From contig JBCBZT010000099.1 of the NCBI GenBank assembly GCA_039815185.1, forward strand, positions 1-13,379: a DNA stretch of 13,379 nucleotides. Direction: 5' to 3'. The DNA comes from Cyanobacteria bacterium P01_A01_bin.123 (GTDB lineage: Bacteria; Cyanobacteriota; Cyanobacteriia; Phormidesmidales; Phormidesmidaceae). Position numbers and translations under genes: made by a program. Of the stretch, positions 2,325-13,048 are shown one piece after another; position 1 is the first letter of the stretch, and every line of letters begins with the position of its first letter. The notes beneath the pieces are model-generated. The model saw only the letters and a list, made by a program, of their open reading frames with translations. It had not been told where the DNA came from and did not search any database.

Positions 2325-2501
2325 TATCTCACTATAATCATCCCCCCGCTGCACGACAGCGCCATAGACCCATCGCCTATTCTGGTCATGCTAGACAGCC
2401 CGCTTGACGGCGCTTTAAGCGGTCGGCTTACGTCGATAGCGATCGCAGCAGGAATCGTCAAGCTATAAGATAATCGTACAAAATTATCCCCCAGCAACGA
2501 T

Positions 2502-3344
2502 ATGGACTGGCTGCTAGACCCCTTGAATTACGAGTTTATGCGGCAAGCGCTCATGGCGGGGGTGCTGATGGGCATTTTGTGTCCGATTGTGGGCACTTAC
2601 CTGCTGGTGCAGCGGATGGCGCTGTTGGGAGATGTGGTGGCCCATGCGGTACTGCCAGGGCTGGCGATCGCCAACTTCCTTAATATTCCTTTGATCACCG
2701 GAGCCTTTGTCTTTGGGATGTTCGGCACCTTTGTCACTGGCTGGATTCGCTCGCAATCTAAAGTTAAGGTCGATGCGGCCATGGCCATCACCCTCTCCAG
2801 CTTTTTCTCCCTCGGCATCATCCTGCTCACCAGCCTGCGCAGCCGCTTTGATCTCGAAGAGCTGCTTTTTGGCGATATCCTCAGCATTGCCCCAGCAGAT
2901 GTGTGGGAAATTGGGTTTGTGACGCTTGCTGTGTTGGTTGGCGTGAAGGTGTTCTATAAGGAGCTGTTGTTTTTTACGTTTGACCCGTTAGGTGCAGAAG
3001 CAGTTGGCCTGCCGGTGGCTGTGATGAATGTTGGGTTAATGGCTGCCATTACGCTGACGATTGTAGCCAGCATCAAGGCGGTAGGCTTCATTTTGGTGGT
3101 GGCGCTGATGGTGAGCCCGGCAGCGGCAGCCTATTTGCTCACCAAAGAACTGCACTGGATGATGGCAGTGGGCGCAGGGTTGGGGGTGCTGTCTTGCCTG
3201 ACGGGGATGTACATTAGCTACTATCTCGATACGCCGTCTGGCCCTGCGATCGCGCTAACGCTGTTTGCCTGCTTTCTATCGGCGTTGTTGTTTAGTCCGA
3301 GTCAGGGGATTTTGACCCGCAGCCGAGGGCAAACTAACGCTTGA
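2502..3344 (+). CDS. znuB: Zn/Mn ABC transporter permease (ABC-3 family)
   Basis: Hydrophobic 280 aa with ALLGDVVAHAVLPGLA, LFGDIL, TFDP..A...G and D.PSGPAI motifs. Zn versus Mn specificity is inferred only from the Zur boxes and the His-rich binding protein. Confidence 0.88.
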   Translation: MDWLLDPLNYEFMRQALMAGVLMGILCPIVGTYLLVQRMALLGDVVAHAVLPGLAIANFLNIPLITGAFVFGMFGTFVTGWIRSQSKVKVDAAMAITLSSFFSLGIILLTSLRSRFDLEELLFGDILSIAPADVWEIGFVTLAVLVGVKVFYKELLFFTFDPLGAEAVGLPVAVMNVGLMAAITLTIVASIKAVGFILVVALMVSPAAAAYLLTKELHWMMAVGAGLGVLSCLTGMYISYYLDTPSGPAIALTLFACFLSALLFSPSQGILTRSRGQTNA

Positions 3345-3353
3345 TTCTAAGCT

Positions 3354-3402
3354 GGAGTATGATATCAATTCGTGTAAAAATGGGTTACATCTCTTGAAAG
3401 TC
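3354..3402 (+). repeat. Left terminal inverted repeat
   Basis: GGAGTATGATATCAATTCGTGTAAAAATGGGTTACATCTCTTGAAAGTC. Confidence 0.8.
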
Positions 3403-3546
3403 CAGCATGACAATGGCTTCGAGACCTAAATATTCAATAATTCTGAGCTGGTCACGTTCCCGTCATTAGTTTTAGCCGCAGAAAATATTTTTTAGGCGCA
3501 AGCATCCTCACCGCAAACGCTCTTGAGTGGCTGCGGCGCGGGGCAA

Positions 3547-3933
3547 CTATTCCGTCTTCTGGCCAGCAAAAGTGCATTCCACAGTGATTTTGAGGCTGCA
3601 CTCAGCGGTCCCCCTGGTGACGTAAGGTACCCCCGCTTCACCACCCAAGTTGATGCCGAATTCAAGTTGCACTTTATCCACCTCAGCCGACCCTAGTTTG
3701 CGAAATGCATTCAGGGTACGACGAGTGTAAGTTTCGATGGTGGTCTCCATCGCCGCAAAACTCTGCATCGCCTTGCGCGTGGCATCTTCGATCGCACCTT
3801 TATCCCCTAAGTCTAGGTCAGCGCGAGTCAGTTCTCGGCTGGGAGCGGCTGGGAGTTGCACCTGCACATCGGTGGCAGGCTCAACGTAAATGATGGTATC
3901 AGTATCAATTTGAATCGGAATGAGCTGGGTCAT
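3547..3933 (-). CDS. CU044_2847 family / Trypco1-like protease-associated small protein
   Basis: C-terminal VQLEFGINLGGEAGVPYVTRGTAECSLKITV beta-hairpin signature, preceded by a helical segment. Adjacent to a caspase gene, as expected for this family. Confidence 0.78.
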   Translation of the reverse strand: MTQLIPIQIDTDTIIYVEPATDVQVQLPAAPSRELTRADLDLGDKGAIEDATRKAMQSFAAMETTIETYTRRTLNAFRKLGSAEVDKVQLEFGINLGGEAGVPYVTRGTAECSLKITVECTFAGQKTE

Positions 3934-4020
3934 GGTCCCGCTTCGAAAATAATGGGGTTAGCTTTATATAAAATATCAGTGTCCCCGGCTCACCTTAGTA
4001 AACAATTTTGTTGCATCGCT

Positions 4021-7000
4021 ATGACTCGCGCCGCCCTTGTTGTAGGCATCAACACCTACACCTACTTTCAAGATCTAAAGGCACCCTCCCATGATGCGGA
4101 GGAAATTGCCCAGCGGTTGCAAAAAGATGGTGAGTTCAAGGTCACTCGACTGCCAGAGGCGATCACCCAGGATTGTGGGCAAAATACCCCGATTATAGGT
4201 AAAACCCTAGCCATTTCCCAAATTCAACTTGAAACTGCCCTAAAACAATTATTTTTGCCCAAAAGTCATCAGCGTCCGAAGACAGCCCTGTTCTATTTCT
4301 CAGGGCATGGCCTCCGCGATGAAGAGGGTGATGACGGATTGGATAAAGGATACCTCGTTACAAGCGATACGGACCCGCACAAGTCTCGACCCGGGCTATC
4401 TCTTGCCTGGTTGCAAAACCTGCTTAAGCGTAGCCAAATTCAACAACAAATCGTCTGGTTAGACTGCTGTCATAGCGGTTCATTCCTGATTAATATCGAG
4501 GCCGCTAACCCTGGGCAATCCCCGAACCGAGATCGCTGTTTCATCGCCTCATCTCGGAGTTTTGCAAAGTCCTGGCAAGACCTGAACAGCCCTTACAGCG
4601 TATTGACGAAAGCCCTGCTGGATGGGCTCAACCCAAAGGTTCATGTAGTCTCTGACGACTGGATTGATACATTTGCCCTTACTACCTATGTGAAACAATC
4701 TTTGCGAAAAGAACAGCAGACTCCAGTCTGCACAAACTTTGGTACCCCCATTCCTCTGATACGAGTGGACTCAGAATCAGTCATCTTTCCGGGAGTGAAC
4801 GATGATGCCATTTGTCCCTACAAAGGCTTGGAGTATTTTGAGTTTAATGATGAAGACCCCAAGTATTTCTTTGGTCGAGAACAGCTGATCGATGAGCTAT
4901 TAGATCAGGTCCGGATGAAAAATTTTGTGGCTCTAATTGGTGCATCTGGAAGTGGCAAGTCCTCAGTCTTATTCGCAGGTTTGCTTCATCAACTGAGTCT
5001 TGGTCAGCGCGTTGTGGGCAGTGACCAGTGGCAGATTTATGTCACTCGCCCCGATCAACATCCTCTTCAAAATCTGGCCTTGGCATTTGTAGAGGAAGGG
5101 CTTTCTGACCTGAAACAAGACGAAGCGCGGAGACATGCTAGCGACCTGATCAGCAAGGGAGCATCCGGACTCCAAAGTCTTGTTCAAAAATCACCTGCTC
5201 CCAAAGTCATCCTTGTTATTGATCAATTTGAAGAAGTCTTTACCCGTTGTGCAGACTCAAAAGAACGGGAACAATTTCTTGCCTGCATCATGGGTGCCTT
5301 GGCAAAAACCGGCAACAAGCTAAGGCTGATCATCGCTATGCGAGCTGACTTTGTTGGTAAGTGCTTGGAGCAAGAGTACAGTGGCCTTGCTCAGCAGTTG
5401 ACATTGGGAACCGTGAATGTGCTGCCGATGACGGAAGATGAGCTGATAGCAGCGATCCGTAAACCCGCTGCTCAAGTTGGCCTGGCGGTTGATGATGCAC
5501 TAGTGACACAAATCCTGGCTGACATTAATGGGGAACCCGGCAGTCTACCCTTACTGCAATACACCCTGAAGACACTGTGGCAAGAATGCAAAGGGAATCG
5601 TTTACTGTTTTCGACTTATCGATCTTTAGGGGGTATTAACGGCACCTTAGATAAACGCGCCACTGAAATTTACCAGGGCTTTGACCCGGCGCAACAACGG
5701 ACTGTACAACACATCTTTCAGCAACTGACCCAACTGGGCGAAGGTACTGCCGACACTCGTCGCCGGGTGTTTCTAGACAATTTGAACTCGGAACCGCAGC
5801 ATCCAGCAGAGCAGGTCAAGCAGGTTATTGAGATCCTCGCGAATAGAGAGAATCGCCTCTTGGTGACCAATGAAGTAGTGCGTAAGGACGGGCGGCATCC
5901 GGTAGTGGATGTAGCCCACGAAGCCCTCATTAGTCATTGGCGATTGCTCAAGCAGTGGATTGAACAAGACAGAGACTTGTTGCGCCAGCAAAGGCGCATT
6001 GAAACCAATGCCGTCACCTGGCAAGAGCATAATCAGGCAAAAGGTTATCTTTTACAGGGATTTCTCCTCAAGGAAGCGCTCCGGTTTCAGAAGCAGCAGT
6101 CAGAGACCCTGCCCCTTTCAGGTTCTGCACGAAACTTCCTTAAACGAAGTCTTTGGCAGCGACGCTGGGATCAACTAAAAATAGCAAGCCTAACAGTTTT
6201 GCTTGTCCCTACTGCCATAGACTACGCGCTTCACCGACAGGAGGTAGAGCAGCATTACACCAAACTAAACGGCGCAGACAAAGCTGTAGAGCGAGAAAGC
6301 GTACTCTTCCTTACTCAGCATTGTCTACAACGGCAAGGAAAGTTGACGGGCTACATAATTGAGCGAACCATAAACCAATATTGTCGTTCACTTGCAAACA
6401 GAACTTTTACTGATGGGGCTAACCTCAGCGGCGTCAATCTCCTCTATGCCACGCTCAGCAATGCCGACCTAAGCGATGCTAACCTCAACGGTGCTAACTT
6501 CAATATTACCGACCTTCGCCGTGCCGACCTCCGCCGTGCTGACCTCCGTGAAGCCACCCTCAACGGTGCTGACCTCAGAAACACTAAACTCAGCGACGCC
6601 GACCTCCGTGAGGCTACACTCATTGAAGCTAATCTCACCAACGCCATTCTCTTTGAGGCTGACCTCAGAAACGCTGACCTCAGCGACGCTGACCTCCGTG
6701 AGGCTACCCTCAGCGCTGTAGACTTCTTCGGAGCCAATCTCTTTACAGCCAACATCAGCAACGCCACTCTTATCTACGCCACCCTCACCAATGCTAATCT
6801 CAGTTACGCTAACCTCAGCGGAGCCGACCTCAAAAGTGCTAATCTCTGGGGGGCTGACCTCAGATACGCCACCCTCAAAGATGCTGACCTCTTAGAAGCT
6901 GATCTCACCACCGCCAACCTTAGTAGTGCCAACCTCGACAACGCCAATCTTAGCGGCGCTATTCTCGAACACGCTTACCTTAGTGGCGGATTTACAGCCA

Positions 7001-7401
7001 ATAGCGTGGGAGCTAACCTCAGTGGCGCCAACCTTTCTGAAGCCAATGTCTATAGCGCCAACCTCGTCGGAGCCAACCTCTCTGAAGCCGACCTCAGCTA
7101 CGCCAGCCTCGTTGAGGCCGATCTCTCTAAAGCAGACCTTTCTAACGCCGACTTGTCGGGGGCCTTCTTAGCTGCTACAGACTTACGCTCCGCAGAAAAC
7201 CTAACGTCTGATCAGCTAACTGGCGAGGATCAGCCCTATCTCTGCAATGTGGCTCTGCCCAATTACATCACGGGTATTGACCCGAATCGTGATTGCAGTC
7301 GCCTTCCACAAGTCCTAGTAAATCGATATGGTTTGACCATCGAATACGCTGAGCAGCTAGTCCAAAGAATTCGTGCGTATCAATTCCATGTGCTAGATTA
7401 G
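4021..7401 (+). CDS. Caspase (peptidase C14)-nSTAND1-type NTPase-pentapeptide repeat protein
   Basis: Start MTRAALVVGIN at ATG 4021. Intact dyad YFSGHG (His 4306-4308) and WLDCCHSG (Cys 4468-4470). CPYKGL..F....FFGRE, Walker A GASGSGKS, Walker B LVIDQFEE, PGSLPLLQYTL and VAHEALI..W motifs. C-terminal A(D/N)LxxA pentapeptide repeats. Confidence 0.92.
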   Translation: MTRAALVVGINTYTYFQDLKAPSHDAEEIAQRLQKDGEFKVTRLPEAITQDCGQNTPIIGKTLAISQIQLETALKQLFLPKSHQRPKTALFYFSGHGLRDEEGDDGLDKGYLVTSDTDPHKSRPGLSLAWLQNLLKRSQIQQQIVWLDCCHSGSFLINIEAANPGQSPNRDRCFIASSRSFAKSWQDLNSPYSVLTKALLDGLNPKVHVVSDDWIDTFALTTYVKQSLRKEQQTPVCTNFGTPIPLIRVDSESVIFPGVNDDAICPYKGLEYFEFNDEDPKYFFGREQLIDELLDQVRMKNFVALIGASGSGKSSVLFAGLLHQLSLGQRVVGSDQWQIYVTRPDQHPLQNLALAFVEEGLSDLKQDEARRHASDLISKGASGLQSLVQKSPAPKVILVIDQFEEVFTRCADSKEREQFLACIMGALAKTGNKLRLIIAMRADFVGKCLEQEYSGLAQQLTLGTVNVLPMTEDELIAAIRKPAAQVGLAVDDALVTQILADINGEPGSLPLLQYTLKTLWQECKGNRLLFSTYRSLGGINGTLDKRATEIYQGFDPAQQRTVQHIFQQLTQLGEGTADTRRRVFLDNLNSEPQHPAEQVKQVIEILANRENRLLVTNEVVRKDGRHPVVDVAHEALISHWRLLKQWIEQDRDLLRQQRRIETNAVTWQEHNQAKGYLLQGFLLKEALRFQKQQSETLPLSGSARNFLKRSLWQRRWDQLKIASLTVLLVPTAIDYALHRQEVEQHYTKLNGADKAVERESVLFLTQHCLQRQGKLTGYIIERTINQYCRSLANRTFTDGANLSGVNLLYATLSNADLSDANLNGANFNITDLRRADLRRADLREATLNGADLRNTKLSDADLREATLIEANLTNAILFEADLRNADLSDADLREATLSAVDFFGANLFTANISNATLIYATLTNANLSYANLSGADLKSANLWGADLRYATLKDADLLEADLTTANLSSANLDNANLSGAILEHAYLSGGFTANSVGANLSGANLSEANVYSANLVGANLSEADLSYASLVEADLSKADLSNADLSGAFLAATDLRSAENLTSDQLTGEDQPYLCNVALPNYITGIDPNRDCSRLPQVLVNRYGLTIEYAEQLVQRIRAYQFHVLD
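6418..7200 (+). repeat. Pentapeptide repeat coding region (15-nt period)
   Basis: Recurring GCT/GCC-GAC/AAC-CTC units encoding ADL/ANL pentapeptides. Confidence 0.9.
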
Positions 7402-7780
7402 CTCTTTAGCGGCTTTAAGCTGATGGTGCGGTGTAGATCGGGATAGTCAATCTGAGCTTGGTTGGCTGCATCTATGCCTCTCTCAAGAGAACCAGTATTT
7501 ACTGCTTCGGAATAGTTGCACCCCAGCGGCAACCACTCTCCATATATAGCAAGGGTTCACAGAATCGAGTGAACGATGAATCAGGCGTTTCTAACCATAA
7601 CTCGGGAGTGGTATAGTCCAAAATTAGTCCGCTGGGTTATTTTTCGACTTCGCTGACGCAATTTCTGCCGTTGCTAGAACGTAGTCTACAAGCGATCTGA
7701 TGGTGCGCTAATCTCAACCCCAAATCCTCCCTGAATGCTGAAATGGACTATTCCAAGAGACTGTAGGCATTTCTCTGCAA

Positions 7781-7829
7781 GACTTTCAGGAGATGTGAGT
7801 CGTCTTTACACGAATCGGTGCCATACTCC
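7781..7829 (-). repeat. Right terminal inverted repeat
   Basis: Reverse complement reads GGAGTATGGCACCGATTCGTGTAAAGACGACTCACATCTCCTGAAAGTC. Confidence 0.8.
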
Positions 7830-7832
7830 AAG

Positions 7833-8576
7833 CTAGCAGACAAACGTAATGTCGTTCTGATCGTGCAGAGCCGCTTGAATATTTGACCCGTAGGCTTGTT
7901 GAATATTTTCCATCGTCATCACGGCTTGCGGCGTATCGTTGGCTAGCACGCGGCGATTGAGTAACAGCAGGCGATCATAGCGATTGAGTGCCTCACCCCA
8001 CTCATGACTGCAAACCAGCAGCGTTTTACCCTGCTGGCTGAGGTCGGCGAAAATGCTCAGCATAACGGCTTCCGTTTTTTTATCGATGCCGCTGAACGGC
8101 TCGTCTAGCAAAAACAAATTGGGCTGCTGGGCCAAGGCACGAGCTAGAAAAACACGCTGCTGCTGACCGCCCGAGAGCTGACCGATAGGACGGTTTTTGA
8201 GGGGTAACATCTCCACCCGATCTAGCGCTGCACTCACTCGTTTTTTGGCTTTGGCATCGGGCGATCGCCCCCAGCCGAGGGCCCTTGCCTGCGCCATCAT
8301 CACCACATTCCAAGCCGTGACCGGATAGTCCCAATCAATTTGCGATCGCTGCGGTACATAGGCGACCTGCCGTCTCTGTCGCTTCAGCAAAGCCCCATTC
8401 AATAAAATCTGGCCCCGATAGGGCGTTAGACCCAGAATCGCTTTGACTAGGGTGCTCTTTCCCGCGCCGTTAGGACCAATGAGCCCTACCCATTCGCCTG
8501 GGCGCAACGTCAGCGAAACCCCTGTGAGTGCTTCGATACCTCGATAGTTAACCGACAAATTCTGGACCGTTAGCAT
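7833..8576 (-). CDS. znuC: Zn/Mn ABC transporter ATP-binding protein
   Basis: Walker A GPNGAGKST, Q-loop YVPQRSQIDWDYP, signature LSGGQQQR, Walker B LLDEP and H-loop SHE. Likely start MLTVQNL at 8576; alternative ATG at 8588. Confidence 0.9.
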   Translation of the reverse strand: MLTVQNLSVNYRGIEALTGVSLTLRPGEWVGLIGPNGAGKSTLVKAILGLTPYRGQILLNGALLKRQRRQVAYVPQRSQIDWDYPVTAWNVVMMAQARALGWGRSPDAKAKKRVSAALDRVEMLPLKNRPIGQLSGGQQQRVFLARALAQQPNLFLLDEPFSGIDKKTEAVMLSIFADLSQQGKTLLVCSHEWGEALNRYDRLLLLNRRVLANDTPQAVMTMENIQQAYGSNIQAALHDQNDITFVC

Positions 8577-8615
8577 AGTAAAGAACAATAATCGGCAAGC
8601 TTATATCTACAGCTT

Positions 8616-9374
8616 TTAGGATTCAAGCCCCGGCAAAGACTCACTGAGCAAGAGAACACTGCCTTCACCCTCCCTAAGTCTGACAATGATCAGGTAGCGA
8701 AGCATTTCGCCTTGTAACATTTGGTACGCCCGTCCGGCAGGAAAGTTTTCTTGGGGCTGGAGATCAAAGCCTGTGTTGCTGGTGAGTTCGGGCATGACCA
8801 CATCTTCAAAAACCTGTTCAGGTGTTTTCCCAGGGAAGTGAAAAAAGGAGGCAACTTCGAACTTGGGCTGATTGTTTTCATCAAAGAATTGATTGGCCGG
8901 TCTTGACTCTCCGAAGTTGCTAAGGATTTCAGGTAGTGAGAATCCAAAGCCTTCATCCTTGCTCTCAAGATAACCCGCTAATTGCGCCCACTCCGCTTCG
9001 ACTTGGGCCTCATCGGCAGGCGTGACTGAATTGGGCGTTGAAGGGCCCGCTGAAGGCGTTGTTGCAGAGACGGCATCTGAATAGGCGGTTGCGTCGGGTG
9101 CAGGCTCATCGATAGGTATATTACTCGTCTCAGTGATAGGGGCATCTAGTGCGGGCGGGCTGGAAGGGACTGATGGCAAGGGCTGAGACTCTGATGCTGG
9201 TGGCGTTGGTAGCTGGCTTGCGTCAACTACAGAAATTGGACTTGCTGGGGTTGAGGACGCCGCCACAGGGCGAGACTTTTCTTGCCATGGTTCTTGCCAC
9301 GGCAAGAGGGCTAACAAACTGTGTAGCAGTATGGAGATGAAAAGTAGAGCACCGCGATCGCGCTTTTTGTCCAT
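8616..9374 (-). CDS. Hypothetical membrane-anchored protein with Pro/Ser/acidic linker
   Basis: 252-aa ORF with an N-terminal hydrophobic segment LLFISILLHSLLALLPW, a low-complexity P/S/A/T region and a globular-looking acidic C-terminus. Co-oriented with the ATPase, just upstream of it. Confidence 0.75.
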   Translation of the reverse strand: MDKKRDRGALLFISILLHSLLALLPWQEPWQEKSRPVAASSTPASPISVVDASQLPTPPASESQPLPSVPSSPPALDAPITETSNIPIDEPAPDATAYSDAVSATTPSAGPSTPNSVTPADEAQVEAEWAQLAGYLESKDEGFGFSLPEILSNFGESRPANQFFDENNQPKFEVASFFHFPGKTPEQVFEDVVMPELTSNTGFDLQPQENFPAGRAYQMLQGEMLRYLIIVRLREGEGSVLLLSESLPGLES

Positions 9375-9409
9375 AGCAGTGCAGGCTAAACAATCCCAAA
9401 ATCTAGTCG

Positions 9410-9438
9410 TTGACAGGCTAAACGGCTAGATTTACACT
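9410..9438 (+). promoter_or_regulatory. Sigma70-type promoter of the metal-binding protein gene
   Basis: TTGACA (9410-9415), 17-nt spacer, TACACT (9433-9438). Confidence 0.75.
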
Positions 9439-9450
9439 AGCAGACTAATG

Positions 9451-9471
9451 TGATAATGATAATCGTTATCT
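9451..9471. promoter_or_regulatory. Two overlapping Zur (FurB)-like boxes
   Basis: TGATAATGATAATCG (9451-9465) and TGATAATCGTTATCT (9457-9471), each 2 mismatches from the cyanobacterial Zur consensus TGATAATnATTATCA. Both lie just downstream of the -10 element. Confidence 0.75.
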
Positions 9472-9506
9472 ATGCCCCACTCTTACCGTCTGTAAAACGA
9501 TAGCCC

Positions 9507-10736
9507 ATGAAACTTTCTTTTCGCCTATTCACTGCGCTTGCTGTCCTCGGCGGAGCCTCCACGCTGCTTCTGGGTAATCAGGCCGCCCGCAGTCAGACCA
9601 GCCCTCAAGTAGTGGCGAGCTATAGCGTATTGTGCGATCTCACTCAGCAAATCGCTCAAGACACCGTGGATGTAACCTGCCTCATAGAAGCGGGTGAAGA
9701 CCCCCACCTCTACAACGCCACCCCTTCTGATAGGCGAGCCATTGAAACCGCCGATCTGGTTCTGTATGGTGGCTACGGGTTCGAGCCAGACATTATTCAA
9801 ATGGTCGAGTCAACAGACGGCGACGCCCCTCAAATTGCCGTTTCTGAAGTTGCCGTTACCGACCCGCTCTTAGGTGAAGCTCACGATCATGGTAGCCATG
9901 GTGAAGAAGGCCATGATGACCACGATGACCACGATGACCATGGCCACGATGACCATGATGACCACGATGACCATGGTGAAGAAGACCATGATGACCACGA
10001 TGACCATGGCGATGAAGACCATGATGACCACCATGACCATGGCGAAGAAGATCATGGTGCCCATAATGAGCATGGTGAAGAAGACCATGATGACCACCAC
10101 GATGAGCATGGCGATGAAGACCATGATGACCACGATGATCACGATGACCATGGTGAAGAAGGTACTGCACCCGATCCGCATGTCTGGCACGATGCAGAAA
10201 ATGGCATTGCGATGATCCGCGTTATCCAAGCGGAGCTCAGTGAAGTTTCTCCTGACAACGCCGACCTTTACCAAGCCAATGCAGAGGCCCTAATCGCTCA
10301 GCTCACTCAGCTCGATAGTTGGATTCAGCAACAGGTAGCCACGGTTCCCGAATCGCAGCGAGTCCTTGTGACAACCCACGATGCACTGGGCTACTACGCC
10401 GATGCCTATGGCATTCGCATTGAGGCTGCTTTGGCAAGCTTTAGTACCGAGGCTCGTCCGTCAGCCGCTGACCTCAGAGAACTGATCGATCTTGTCGAAG
10501 ACAGCAACATACCCACTGTCTTTATAGAGTCAACTAGCAACCCTGGACTGATTGAAGCGGTTTCTAGGGAAACAGATATTGGCATTTCAGAAGAGCCTCT
10601 TTACGCCGACGGCTTAGGAGAAGCTGGCACACCCGCAGCGACCTATACAGGCATGCTGATGACCAATACCTGCAATATTGTCACCGGTCTGGGTGGCACA
10701 TGCAACGGAGCTGCAGCACAGGCATTTCTGGAATAA
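9507..10736 (+). CDS. znuA: Zn ABC transporter substrate-binding protein (cluster A-I) with long His/Asp-rich loop
   Basis: N-terminal signal peptide; DPHLY, DPHVW, THDALGY and YADGL ligand motifs (His/His/His/Asp); ~90-aa HDD repeat loop. Confidence 0.9.
   Translation: MKLSFRLFTALAVLGGASTLLLGNQAARSQTSPQVVASYSVLCDLTQQIAQDTVDVTCLIEAGEDPHLYNATPSDRRAIETADLVLYGGYGFEPDIIQMVESTDGDAPQIAVSEVAVTDPLLGEAHDHGSHGEEGHDDHDDHDDHGHDDHDDHDDHGEEDHDDHDDHGDEDHDDHHDHGEEDHGAHNEHGEEDHDDHHDEHGDEDHDDHDDHDDHGEEGTAPDPHVWHDAENGIAMIRVIQAELSEVSPDNADLYQANAEALIAQLTQLDSWIQQQVATVPESQRVLVTTHDALGYYADAYGIRIEAALASFSTEARPSAADLRELIDLVEDSNIPTVFIESTSNPGLIEAVSRETDIGISEEPLYADGLGEAGTPAATYTGMLMTNTCNIVTGLGGTCNGAAAQAFLE
9882..10151 (+). 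repeat. Tandem GATGACCA(C/T) 9-nt and higher-order repeats encoding the His/Asp loop
   Basis: Repeated gatgaccac/gatgaccat units with ggtgaagaa/ggcgatgaa spacers; 29 His counted by hand. Confidence 0.95.
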
Positions 10737-12706: not shown

Positions 12707-13001
12707 CAGTCCTATGAGGGAGTTATACAGCATCCATCATGGCACCCTTAAGCCGCCACGTTCGCTCAATCAATAGAAGGAGACAGATACAGGCAGGGCA
12801 CCACCCAATCCGCCCCTGTCTGACCCACTTAAAGCCTTTCCGTTGGGTCGTTTCGATCCATATCCACAGTTCTCCTCCACTTCCGTCAGCAGCCACATAA
12901 TCCTCAGGGCATGGACTTGCGCTGAGTGCCCTGGCTAGGGAGGACTGACGCCACTGGTCTGCCCGCGTAACCGTGACCTAAAAGCCCCTAGACTGAAGCT
13001 G

Positions 13002-13016
13002 TGATAATGATTATCA
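13002..13016. promoter_or_regulatory. Perfect Zur box
   Basis: TGATAATGATTATCA, a perfect 7-1-7 palindrome 32 nt upstream of the GTG at 13049. Confidence 0.88.
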
Positions 13017-13048
13017 TTCTAATAGTCTCATCATCCGGATAAACTAAC

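What the first reader, a model, noticed from the sequence alone, without database searches (positions are those of the whole stretch)
3349..7834. Transposase-less, inverted-repeat-bounded element delivering a caspase module between two convergent ABC genes
Seen: 49-bp ends that are 39/49 identical in inverted orientation (9 of the 10 differences are transitions), beginning GGAGTATG and ending CATACTCC, each flanked by AAGCT. Deleting the element and one AAGCT leaves the permease TGA and the ATPase TAG only 7 nt apart, which looks like an empty site. No HIP1 was seen in its 4.5 kb, versus eight in the other ~9 kb. The only cargo is a Trypco-like gene and a caspase-NTPase gene. Inference: a non-autonomous cargo element mobilised in trans, or two dispersed repeats/recombination sites acting as a composite unit. 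I do not recognise these ends as belonging to a known IS/Tn family.
Basis: partly seen in the sequence, partly recalled or inferred. Interest (0 to 1): 0.85.

Follow-up and report, generated by a model that had tools for sequence, protein, structure and literature searches.

The report
Tn3 shell carrying palindrome-bounded defence cassette
A transposase-less remnant of a Tn3-family jumping gene sits between two metal-transport genes of a cyanobacterium and carries a predicted phage-defence suicide pair, which lies between two copies of an apparently undescribed palindrome where related plasmids and transposons likely swap their cargo.

Summary
Observation confirmed: 39/49 inverted ends, AAGCT on both sides, no HIP1 inside. 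The ends are not a new family. They are decayed terminal repeats of a cyanobacterial Tn3-family element: in relatives they bracket a full Tn3 transposase and make 5-bp duplications. The clean empty site (one AAGCT) appears in 4 of 8 runs laid. This genome holds no Tn3 transposase. So the outer element is a Tn3 mobile insertion cassette, a known kind, probably old and immobile.

This palindrome occurs in 38 of 172 family genomes and 0 of 299 other cyanobacteria. It is enriched on small replicons and sits inside two unrelated resolvase-less Tn3 lineages. Homology between relatives breaks at it, including a relative with different cargo at this same insertion point. It likely is a recombination site used in trans. 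No enzyme was found, and a chromosomal dif role was not supported. The scan has no look-alike DNA on record, only analogous cassette notes from other taxa.

The parts
2502..3344 (+). znuB-like ABC-3 permease gene, left flank (host side)
   Evidence: PF00950; continuous with znuC flank in empty alleles
3349..3353 (+). 5-bp target duplication AAGCT, left copy
3354..3402 (+). Tn3-family left inverted repeat (IRL), decayed: 8 changes in 46 nt from the family sequence, all G>A or C>T
3354..3457 (+). Left arm homologous to the tnpA-upstream end of autonomous elements
   Evidence: alignments with L099, L087, L085 end at 3457
3458..3524 (.). Outer flank of palindrome A; shared with the different-cargo element at the same site in G195
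   Evidence: 88% over window 2853-3549
3525..3552 (.). Palindrome A (10-bp arms, 8-nt centre); left cargo boundary; its arm supplies the Trypco1 stop codon
3547..3933 (-). Trypco1 (Pepco) gene, 128 aa; predicted protease-activated pore effector
   Evidence: PF19493 E 3e-20; function by analogy to bioRxiv 2025.11.14.688446
4021..7401 (+). Caspase (C14)-nSTAND1-weak TM-pentapeptide repeat gene, 1126 aa; His/Cys motifs and Walker A/B present
7510..7538 (.). Palindrome B (10-bp arms, 9-nt centre); right cargo boundary
7539..7645 (+). Conserved one-sided flank of palindrome B (flank family F0), found in 14 of 172 other family genomes and once more in this genome (C129)
7674..7780 (+). Remnant of the tnpA 3' end and its trailer (broken frame LERSLQAI)
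   Evidence: 156-nt alignment with L083 and L099; frames
7781..7829 (-). Tn3-family right inverted repeat (IRR), 6 changes in 46 nt from the family sequence
7830..7834 (+). 5-bp target duplication AAGCT, right copy (overlaps the znuC stop)
7833..8588 (-). znuC-like ABC ATPase gene, right flank (host side)
   Evidence: PF00005

Best explanation
The element is a Tn3-family mobile insertion cassette, the two ends of a cyanobacterial transposase-only Tn3 element without the transposase, that inserted with a 5-bp duplication and is now probably immobile, and its cargo is a predicted Pepco-caspase suicide pair that was likely swapped in by recombination at two flanking palindromes. Step 1 (shown): a Tn3 element of this IR family inserted at AAGCT between convergent znuB and znuC. 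Step 2 (shown): tnpA is gone except its last ~70 nt, the genome holds no Tn3 transposase, and the ends have decayed. Step 3 (shown): a 27-29-bp palindrome bounds the cargo on both sides, lies inside autonomous elements, and marks points where relatives switch from shared to unrelated DNA. Step 4 (inferred): the palindrome is the crossover site of a site-specific recombinase acting in trans, most likely of tyrosine type, that resolves plasmid multimers and Tn3 cointegrates and as a by-product exchanges the segments between two sites. Step 5 (inferred): on phage sensing the STAND domain oligomerises, the caspase cuts the Trypco1/Pepco tail, and the pore kills the cell.
For: Shell: the end pattern is in 20 of 172 other family genomes, control 1 hit, starting GGGG. 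L099 has both ends around one ORF scoring 686 bits on NF033527 (cut-off 500). Window left arm matches the tnpA-upstream end for 104 nt and right arm the tnpA 3' end for 156 nt. 4 of 62 end pairs tested give exact 5-bp duplications, 0.06 expected. Empty allele in 4 of 4 runs. No PF01526 in the genome, no tblastn hit. Age: the same insertion point with more or less eroded ends in G195 and G032. Palindrome: exact in 38 of 172 family genomes, control 0; 0 of 299 genomes outside the family. 309-313 nt inside IRL in 4 of 4 tnpA-bearing loci checked, and 9-12 nt after tnpA in a second lineage, 25% identical, with other IRs and no resolvase. Six sites on five small replicons against one on the chromosome in G112 (P 2.5e-6). 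Breakpoints at the site: window vs G195 ends at 3549; L242 vs L343 share 3934 nt ending on the last base of the site; L344 vs L345 share both outer flanks but hold different genes. Flank families pair with different partners among 87 sites, and sites with the same centre swap flanks. A second Trypco1-caspase module is bounded by two sites in G012. A second allele differs at 14 listed places in 519 arm bases but 8 in 3957 cargo bases (P 9e-9; 3e-6 if all unlisted differences fall in the cargo). Cargo logic: section 8 of bioRxiv 2025.11.14.688446.
Against: No recombinase could be tied to the site: 1 of 44 recombinase loci, 0 of 26 and 0 of 32 had a site with at most 2 mismatches, and one XerC-like candidate was in only 5 of 173 genomes. 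The centre varies in sequence and length (7 nt in 37, 8 in 33, 9 in 14, 10 in 1, 12 in 2 of 87), and the window's two centres differ, which a homology-dependent tyrosine recombinase would not favour for one integration event. Most Trypco1 genes have no site beside them: 1 of 30 loci at the gene end (the window itself), one weak site 107 bp away. G195's cargo has no second site and its right end is not recognisable. The arms are non-coding, so part of the arm/cargo contrast may be selection; against coding flank on the same contig the contrast is weaker (P 0.005-0.04). No other complete transposase-less paired element with a duplication was found among the loci fetched. The tested Pepco system uses a trypsin-like protease and an upstream gene; here it is a caspase and a divergent gene, untested; PADLOC gave no system.
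Confidence: 0.7

Rival explanations
1. Plain decayed Tn3 cassette: the shell captured a piece of plasmid DNA by cointegrate formation and deletions, and the palindromes are operators or two-way terminators that only happen to sit at module edges.
For: The site lies about 100 nt upstream of tnpA, as an operator might; it forms a hairpin and often follows stop codons; no enzyme found.
Against: It lies downstream of tnpA in the second lineage. Homology ends on the site to the base in three independent comparisons. Flanks reassort around it. Arm sequence, not only structure, is kept across unrelated contexts and is family-restricted.
Confidence: 0.17
2. The palindrome is site I of a small serine resolvase res site, used in trans, and cargo is exchanged as in res-mediated Tn3 hybrids.
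For: About 28 bp long; res recombination is known to swap Tn3 arms (PMC7157771, passages); palindrome B has a one-sided ~105-nt conserved flank that could hold accessory sites; a serine enzyme needs only 2 matching central bases (recalled), which would allow varied centres.
Against: 0 of 26 serine-recombinase loci from 10 site-bearing or IR-bearing genomes had a site with at most 2 mismatches, nor the 3 in this genome; no triple-subsite layout was evident in the flanks; centre length varies.
Confidence: 0.15
3. The palindrome is this family's dif site and host XerCD acts on plasmid and transposon copies, as with pdif modules.
For: Size and plasmid enrichment fit; G112's small replicons all carry it while its two PF00589 hits are chromosomal; cyanobacterial dif is unidentified (PMC3025954, PMC6416890, passages); in G061 an exact site lies 1.1 kb from the point opposite dnaA.
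Against: Only 1 of 8 chromosomes tested has a site significantly near that point; G132 has none at 2 mismatches; chromosomal copies share no gene context; no tyrosine recombinase common to all was seen.
Confidence: 0.1
4. The element is still mobile as a unit, moved in trans, and of a new family.
For: Intact 5-bp duplication; empty alleles at 94-96% flank identity; a sister allele keeps GGGG at the left tip.
Against: Family is Tn3; single copy; no transposase in the genome; ends decayed; same insertion point in genomes at 89-93% identity implies age.
Confidence: 0.05

Closest known systems
Tn3-derived mobile insertion cassettes (MICs) of Xanthomonas, TnXax1 ends (PMC4337579; abstract and passages read)
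   Same: Passenger genes between Tn3 inverted repeats, no transposase, 5-bp target duplication, cognate transposase elsewhere.
   Different: Other IR family and host; cargo is a predicted defence pair; cargo is nested between two internal palindromes; no cognate transposase found in this genome.
TIMEs, TIME-COMP and TIME-RES of Pseudomonas (PMC4133298; abstract and passages read)
   Same: Non-autonomous Tn3 derivatives with 5-bp duplications; one carries a portable recombination site.
   Different: TIME-COMP has two whole miniature elements around the cargo and TIME-RES encodes its resolvase; here there is one IRL arm, one IRR arm and no recombinase gene.
Tn4430 subgroup (TnpI/irs) and Tn4651 subgroup (TnpS/T, rst) (PMC7157771; passages read)
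   Same: An internal inverted-repeat core site between IRL and tnpA; parent TnpA matches Tn4430 TnpA (E 2.6e-62) and Bacillus Tn3 transposases at about 40%.
   Different: Those elements encode their recombinase; L099 and L432 encode tnpA only, and the same site is spread over plasmids.
pdif modules of Acinetobacter plasmids (PMC6449649; passages read)
   Same: Many short dyad sites on plasmids, genes between pairs of sites, enzyme in trans, lineage-restricted.
   Different: Here the site is not shown to match a chromosomal dif, the arms are nearly symmetric, the centre is 7-9 nt, and the enzyme is unknown.
Pepco (Trypco1)-protease defence modules (bioRxiv 10.1101/2025.11.14.688446; abstract, passages and section 8 read; PMC7159879 passages)
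   Same: Trypco1 gene next to a protease fused to a STAND ATPase sensor.
   Different: Caspase rather than trypsin, nSTAND1 plus pentapeptide repeats as sensor, divergent genes; untested.

Membership tests
Tn3-family MIC | Terminal IRs homologous to those of an autonomous Tn3 element | tested here: met
   (L099: both ends around an NF033527 transposase)
Tn3-family MIC | 5-bp target duplication, single copy in the empty site | tested here: met
   family makes 5-bp duplications in 4 of 62 pairs tested
Tn3-family MIC | No transposase between the ends; passenger genes only | tested here: met
   only a ~70-nt tnpA remnant
Tn3-family MIC | Mobilised in trans by a cognate TnpA | not testable with these tools
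   No TnpA in this 133-contig assembly; ends decayed
Autonomous Tn3 transposon | tnpA and resolvase genes inside the IRs | tested here: not met
TIME-COMP / IS1071-type composite | Two complete elements (four IRs) around the cargo | tested here: not met
   Only two IR copies in the genome
pdif/Xer module (inner cassette) | Cargo between two ~28-bp dyad sites, sites enriched on plasmids | tested here: met
pdif/Xer module (inner cassette) | Site matches a single chromosomal dif opposite the origin | tested here: not met
   1 of 8 chromosomes near the point opposite dnaA, none in G132; dnaA is only a proxy for the origin
pdif/Xer module (inner cassette) | XerCD dependence | not testable with these tools
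   needs genetics
Serine resolvase res site (inner palindrome) | Found upstream of a small serine resolvase gene, with subsites II and III | tested here: not met
   0 of 26 loci and 0 of 3 in this genome; only loci returned by those searches were seen
Tn4430 irs / Tn4651 rst (inner palindrome) | Tyrosine recombinase gene adjacent within the element | tested here: not met
   L099 and L432 hold tnpA only
Integron cassette | attC (RYYYAAC...GTTRRRY) after each gene | tested here: not met
   No folding attC-like match in the window by a simple pattern scan
Pepco-protease defence module | Trypco1/Pepco gene beside a sensor-fused protease with intact catalytic motifs | tested here: met
   (SGHG at 94, DCCHSG at 148, Walker A at 307, Walker B region at 397)
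Pepco-protease defence module | Protease cleaves the Pepco tail and causes death on phage sensing | not testable with these tools
   needs expression and phage assays

The most novel reading that the evidence does not exclude
One cyanobacterial family has its own undescribed site-specific recombination system: a 27-29-bp palindrome, served by a still unknown enzyme in trans, that plasmids use, that at least two unrelated Tn3 lineages have adopted in place of a resolvase gene, and that turns defence genes (Pepco-caspase, Shedu, STAND-WD40, vWA-MoxR/DGR) into exchangeable cassettes. The window would be a frozen Tn3 shell acting as a chromosomal docking bay for such cassettes.
Probability: 0.45. 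Interest if true: 0.8.

Novelty: new variant of a known kind. Interest (0 to 1): 0.58.

Why it matters
The outer element alone is ordinary: a Tn3 cassette in a new host. The inner palindrome matters more. If it is a recombination site, it would explain how Tn3 elements without a resolvase finish transposition in these cyanobacteria and how their defence genes are exchanged as units. It would also give a named DNA target for finding the missing enzyme in a phylum where dif could not be predicted (PMC3025954, passages). The cargo is a ready natural test of whether a caspase, not only a trypsin, activates Pepco pores.

Tried and rejected
End as a high-copy solo repeat: rejected. End in viral contigs: 0 matches. 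Pattern search for the empty junction in 173 genomes: chance level, equal to control; of 31 znuB loci, 9 showed znuC nearby with other spacers (-9 to 1303 nt) and none had the clean 7-nt junction. Structured RNA: no Rfam match of weight. PADLOC: single-domain hits only. Caspase-NTPase part against solved structures by sequence: 0 hits. XerC-like protein of contig C82 as the enzyme: 5 of 173 family genomes and also outside the family; rejected. Tyrosine and serine recombinase genes beside the site: not found apart from one 179-aa integrase about 0.9 kb from a site (L288) and a close relative of it near a site in L098. Chromosomal dif: not supported. 'Stop codon in the arm' as a rule: only 4 of 107 site sides; dropped. 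The 179-aa orphan protein next to some sites has no family. The weak site at the Trypco1 end in G014 (3 mismatches, 10-nt centre) is within background (4 per 161 kb) and is not counted. The metagenome scan gave 6 loci, one more tnpA-bearing element (L356) and no complete cassette. Parts without cover in runs X5-X8 are used only through the bridging contigs. The palindrome was not searched in viral contigs. No fold or complex job was run.
Full report
1. Observation. Every stated fact holds. The ends at 3354-3402 and 7781-7829 are 39/49 identical in inverted orientation and flanked by AAGCT. Nine of ten differences are transitions and the reconstructed gap between the two stop codons is 7 nt. 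HIP1 occurs 8 times outside and 0 times inside (P 0.007 at the genome rate). The cargo is Trypco1 and a caspase-nSTAND1-pentapeptide protein, the flanks an ABC-3 permease and an ABC ATPase. The end occurs only as this pair in the 8.1-Mb, 133-contig assembly.

2. The insertion is real. Contigs from runs X5-X7 (study P2) and X8 (study P3) join 3348 to 7830 with one copy of the 5 bases, at about 94-96% flank identity in the long contigs (4 of 4 runs). The four runs of study P1 carry the filled site and other junctions, not this clean one; X1 may be the source of the window and is not independent. Among 31 znuB loci from genomes none had the clean junction; two relatives (G195, G032) have Tn3-end sequence starting at the same AAGCT.

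3. The ends are Tn3-family ends. The pattern is in 20 of 172 other family genomes (control 1) and in 29 stretches of the genome collection, titled as Nodosilinea, Halomicronema, Phormidium, Leptolyngbya and related records, nearly always beginning GGGG. They adjoin DUF4158 + DDE_Tnp_Tn3 proteins. L099 has both ends around a single ORF above the NCBIfam Tn3 transposase cut-off, which matches Tn4430 TnpA. Four of 62 end pairs tested give exact 5-bp duplications against 0.06 expected; these pairs lie across contig breaks. The window's left 104 nt match the tnpA-upstream end and its right 156 nt match the tnpA 3' end plus IRR: one IRL arm and one IRR arm in the parental order. No Tn3 transposase was found in this assembly, though 70 of 172 relatives have some Tn3 DDE match. 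The ends differ from the family sequence at 8 and 6 of 46 places. This fits a mobile insertion cassette as defined in PMC4337579 (passages), old and probably immobile.

4. A second layer. G195 has the same left arm up to 3549 and then a different cargo, a 1524-aa NB-ARC/TPR gene. At that point lies a palindrome (3525-3552), and a second one (7510-7538) lies just after the caspase gene. The motif, two 10-bp arms around 7-9 nt, is exact in 38 of 172 family genomes with 0 control hits and in 0 of 299 genomes outside the family. At 2 mismatches it gave 65 sites against 6 controls in five site-rich genomes, but only 17 against 7 and 28 against 10 in two further sets of five. In G112 six sites lie on five small replicons and one on the chromosome (P 2.5e-6). 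It lies 309-313 nt inside IRL in 4 of 4 tnpA-bearing loci of this IR family. It lies 9-12 nt after tnpA in 3 of 30 Tn3 loci scanned, plus two more fetched, of a second lineage that is 25% identical, has other IRs and no resolvase in L432.

5. DNA is exchanged at the palindrome. Among 87 distinct sites, flank families pair with different partners, and sites with the same centre share out their flanks (shuffled flanks never reached the threshold in 3000 trials). L242 and L343 are 86% alike for 3934 nt up to the last base of the site and unrelated beyond. L344 and L345 share both outer flanks and hold different genes. Segments between or beside sites include Shedu, nSTAND1-WD40, vWA-MoxR, CHAT and kinase genes, but also Uma2, DUF2806 and an adhesin (23 proteins picked by me, not a census). 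A Trypco1-caspase module in G012 is bounded by two sites, 2 and 3 mismatches. A sister allele in runs X2-X4 differs from the window at 14 listed places in the arms and 8 in the cargo (positions read from a table that shows only the best-supported rows), as expected if the cargo is younger than the shell; selection on coding DNA may explain part of it. Against: only the window, of 30 Trypco1 loci, has a site at the gene end, so the module is not tied to the site in general.

6. Mechanism. Shown: insertion, loss of tnpA, decay, site positions, breakpoints. Inferred: the palindrome is a recombinase core acted on in trans. Its place inside resolvase-less Tn3 elements parallels irs of Tn4430 and rst of Tn4651 (PMC7157771, passages); its spread on plasmids parallels pdif modules (PMC6449649, passages). 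The enzyme was not found: sites were near 1 of 44, 0 of 26 and 0 of 32 recombinase loci, and the dif test failed in 7 of 8 chromosomes. Varied centres argue against simple one-step integration here; two events, or a serine-type enzyme, remain possible. Two earlier scan notes (e1-7442190, e1-6042298) prompted the serine test. The cargo has His/Cys and Walker motifs and one weak hydrophobic helix at about 719-737. Pepco, also called Trypco1, is a pore activated by tail cleavage in a Streptomyces trypsin system (bioRxiv 2025.11.14.688446, section 8); transfer to this caspase pair is inference. Trypco1 was first described in conflict systems (PMC7159879 and bioRxiv 2023.09.22.558884, passages).

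7. Novelty. The shell is a new member of a known kind. I found no paper on this IR family or this palindrome: the listings of searches (arm 10-mers; 25 of 311 shown, unrelated by title; 0 papers; other organisms by title). The library lacks most subscription papers, ISfinder and TnCentral could not be searched, and supplements were not read. The scan holds no look-alike DNA. Verdict: new variant of a known kind; confidence about 0.95 for the Tn3 shell, about 0.65 that the palindrome is a recombination site; interest 0.58.

Noticed in passing
window 2400-10736 and G000:C36 (L034): The znuB/znuC/znuA block occurs at 85-93% identity in genomes of several genera, with many different fillings between znuB and znuC; this genome has a second znuB (89%) beside an integron integrase and a GNAT gene. 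The locus looks horizontally spread and the junction is an insertion hot spot.
   Followed up: partly
window 3351-3475, run X3: Three contigs join 3351 to 3475, removing the whole Tn3-derived left arm; may be a step that fixes the cargo, or another organism.
   Followed up: no
window 9449-9467 and 13000-13018: Two near-identical AT-rich dyads (TGTGATAATGAT(A/T)ATC...) upstream of znuA and of the last ORF; look like Fur/Zur-type boxes (label recalled).
   Followed up: no
L432 (G150:C9) 9900-17900: A second tnpA-only Tn3 element (12253-15591) is flanked by two identical inverted copies of a 621-aa ORF region that reads like a group II intron (label from sequence look, not scanned).
   Followed up: no
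L077 8134-8173: A 40-bp perfect palindrome made of two head-to-head IR halves ends an IR-bounded unit with two orphan genes (179 and 213 aa) that recur beside the palindrome in several genomes.
   Followed up: partly
L089 1118-1328 and L357 1360-1570: 211-bp miniature elements with the same IR family (TIME-like), no duplication seen.
   Followed up: no
L235, L347, L339: vWA-MoxR or Trypco1 conflict loci with reverse transcriptase or FGE genes (DGR-like) lie next to or between palindromes.
   Followed up: partly
G061:C1 7.42-7.72 Mb: Six sites cluster around the point opposite dnaA, one within 1.1 kb; may be integrated plasmid DNA or scaffold order.
   Followed up: partly
window 9876-10193: ZnuA has a long His/Asp repeat loop whose length differs between relatives.
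   Followed up: no
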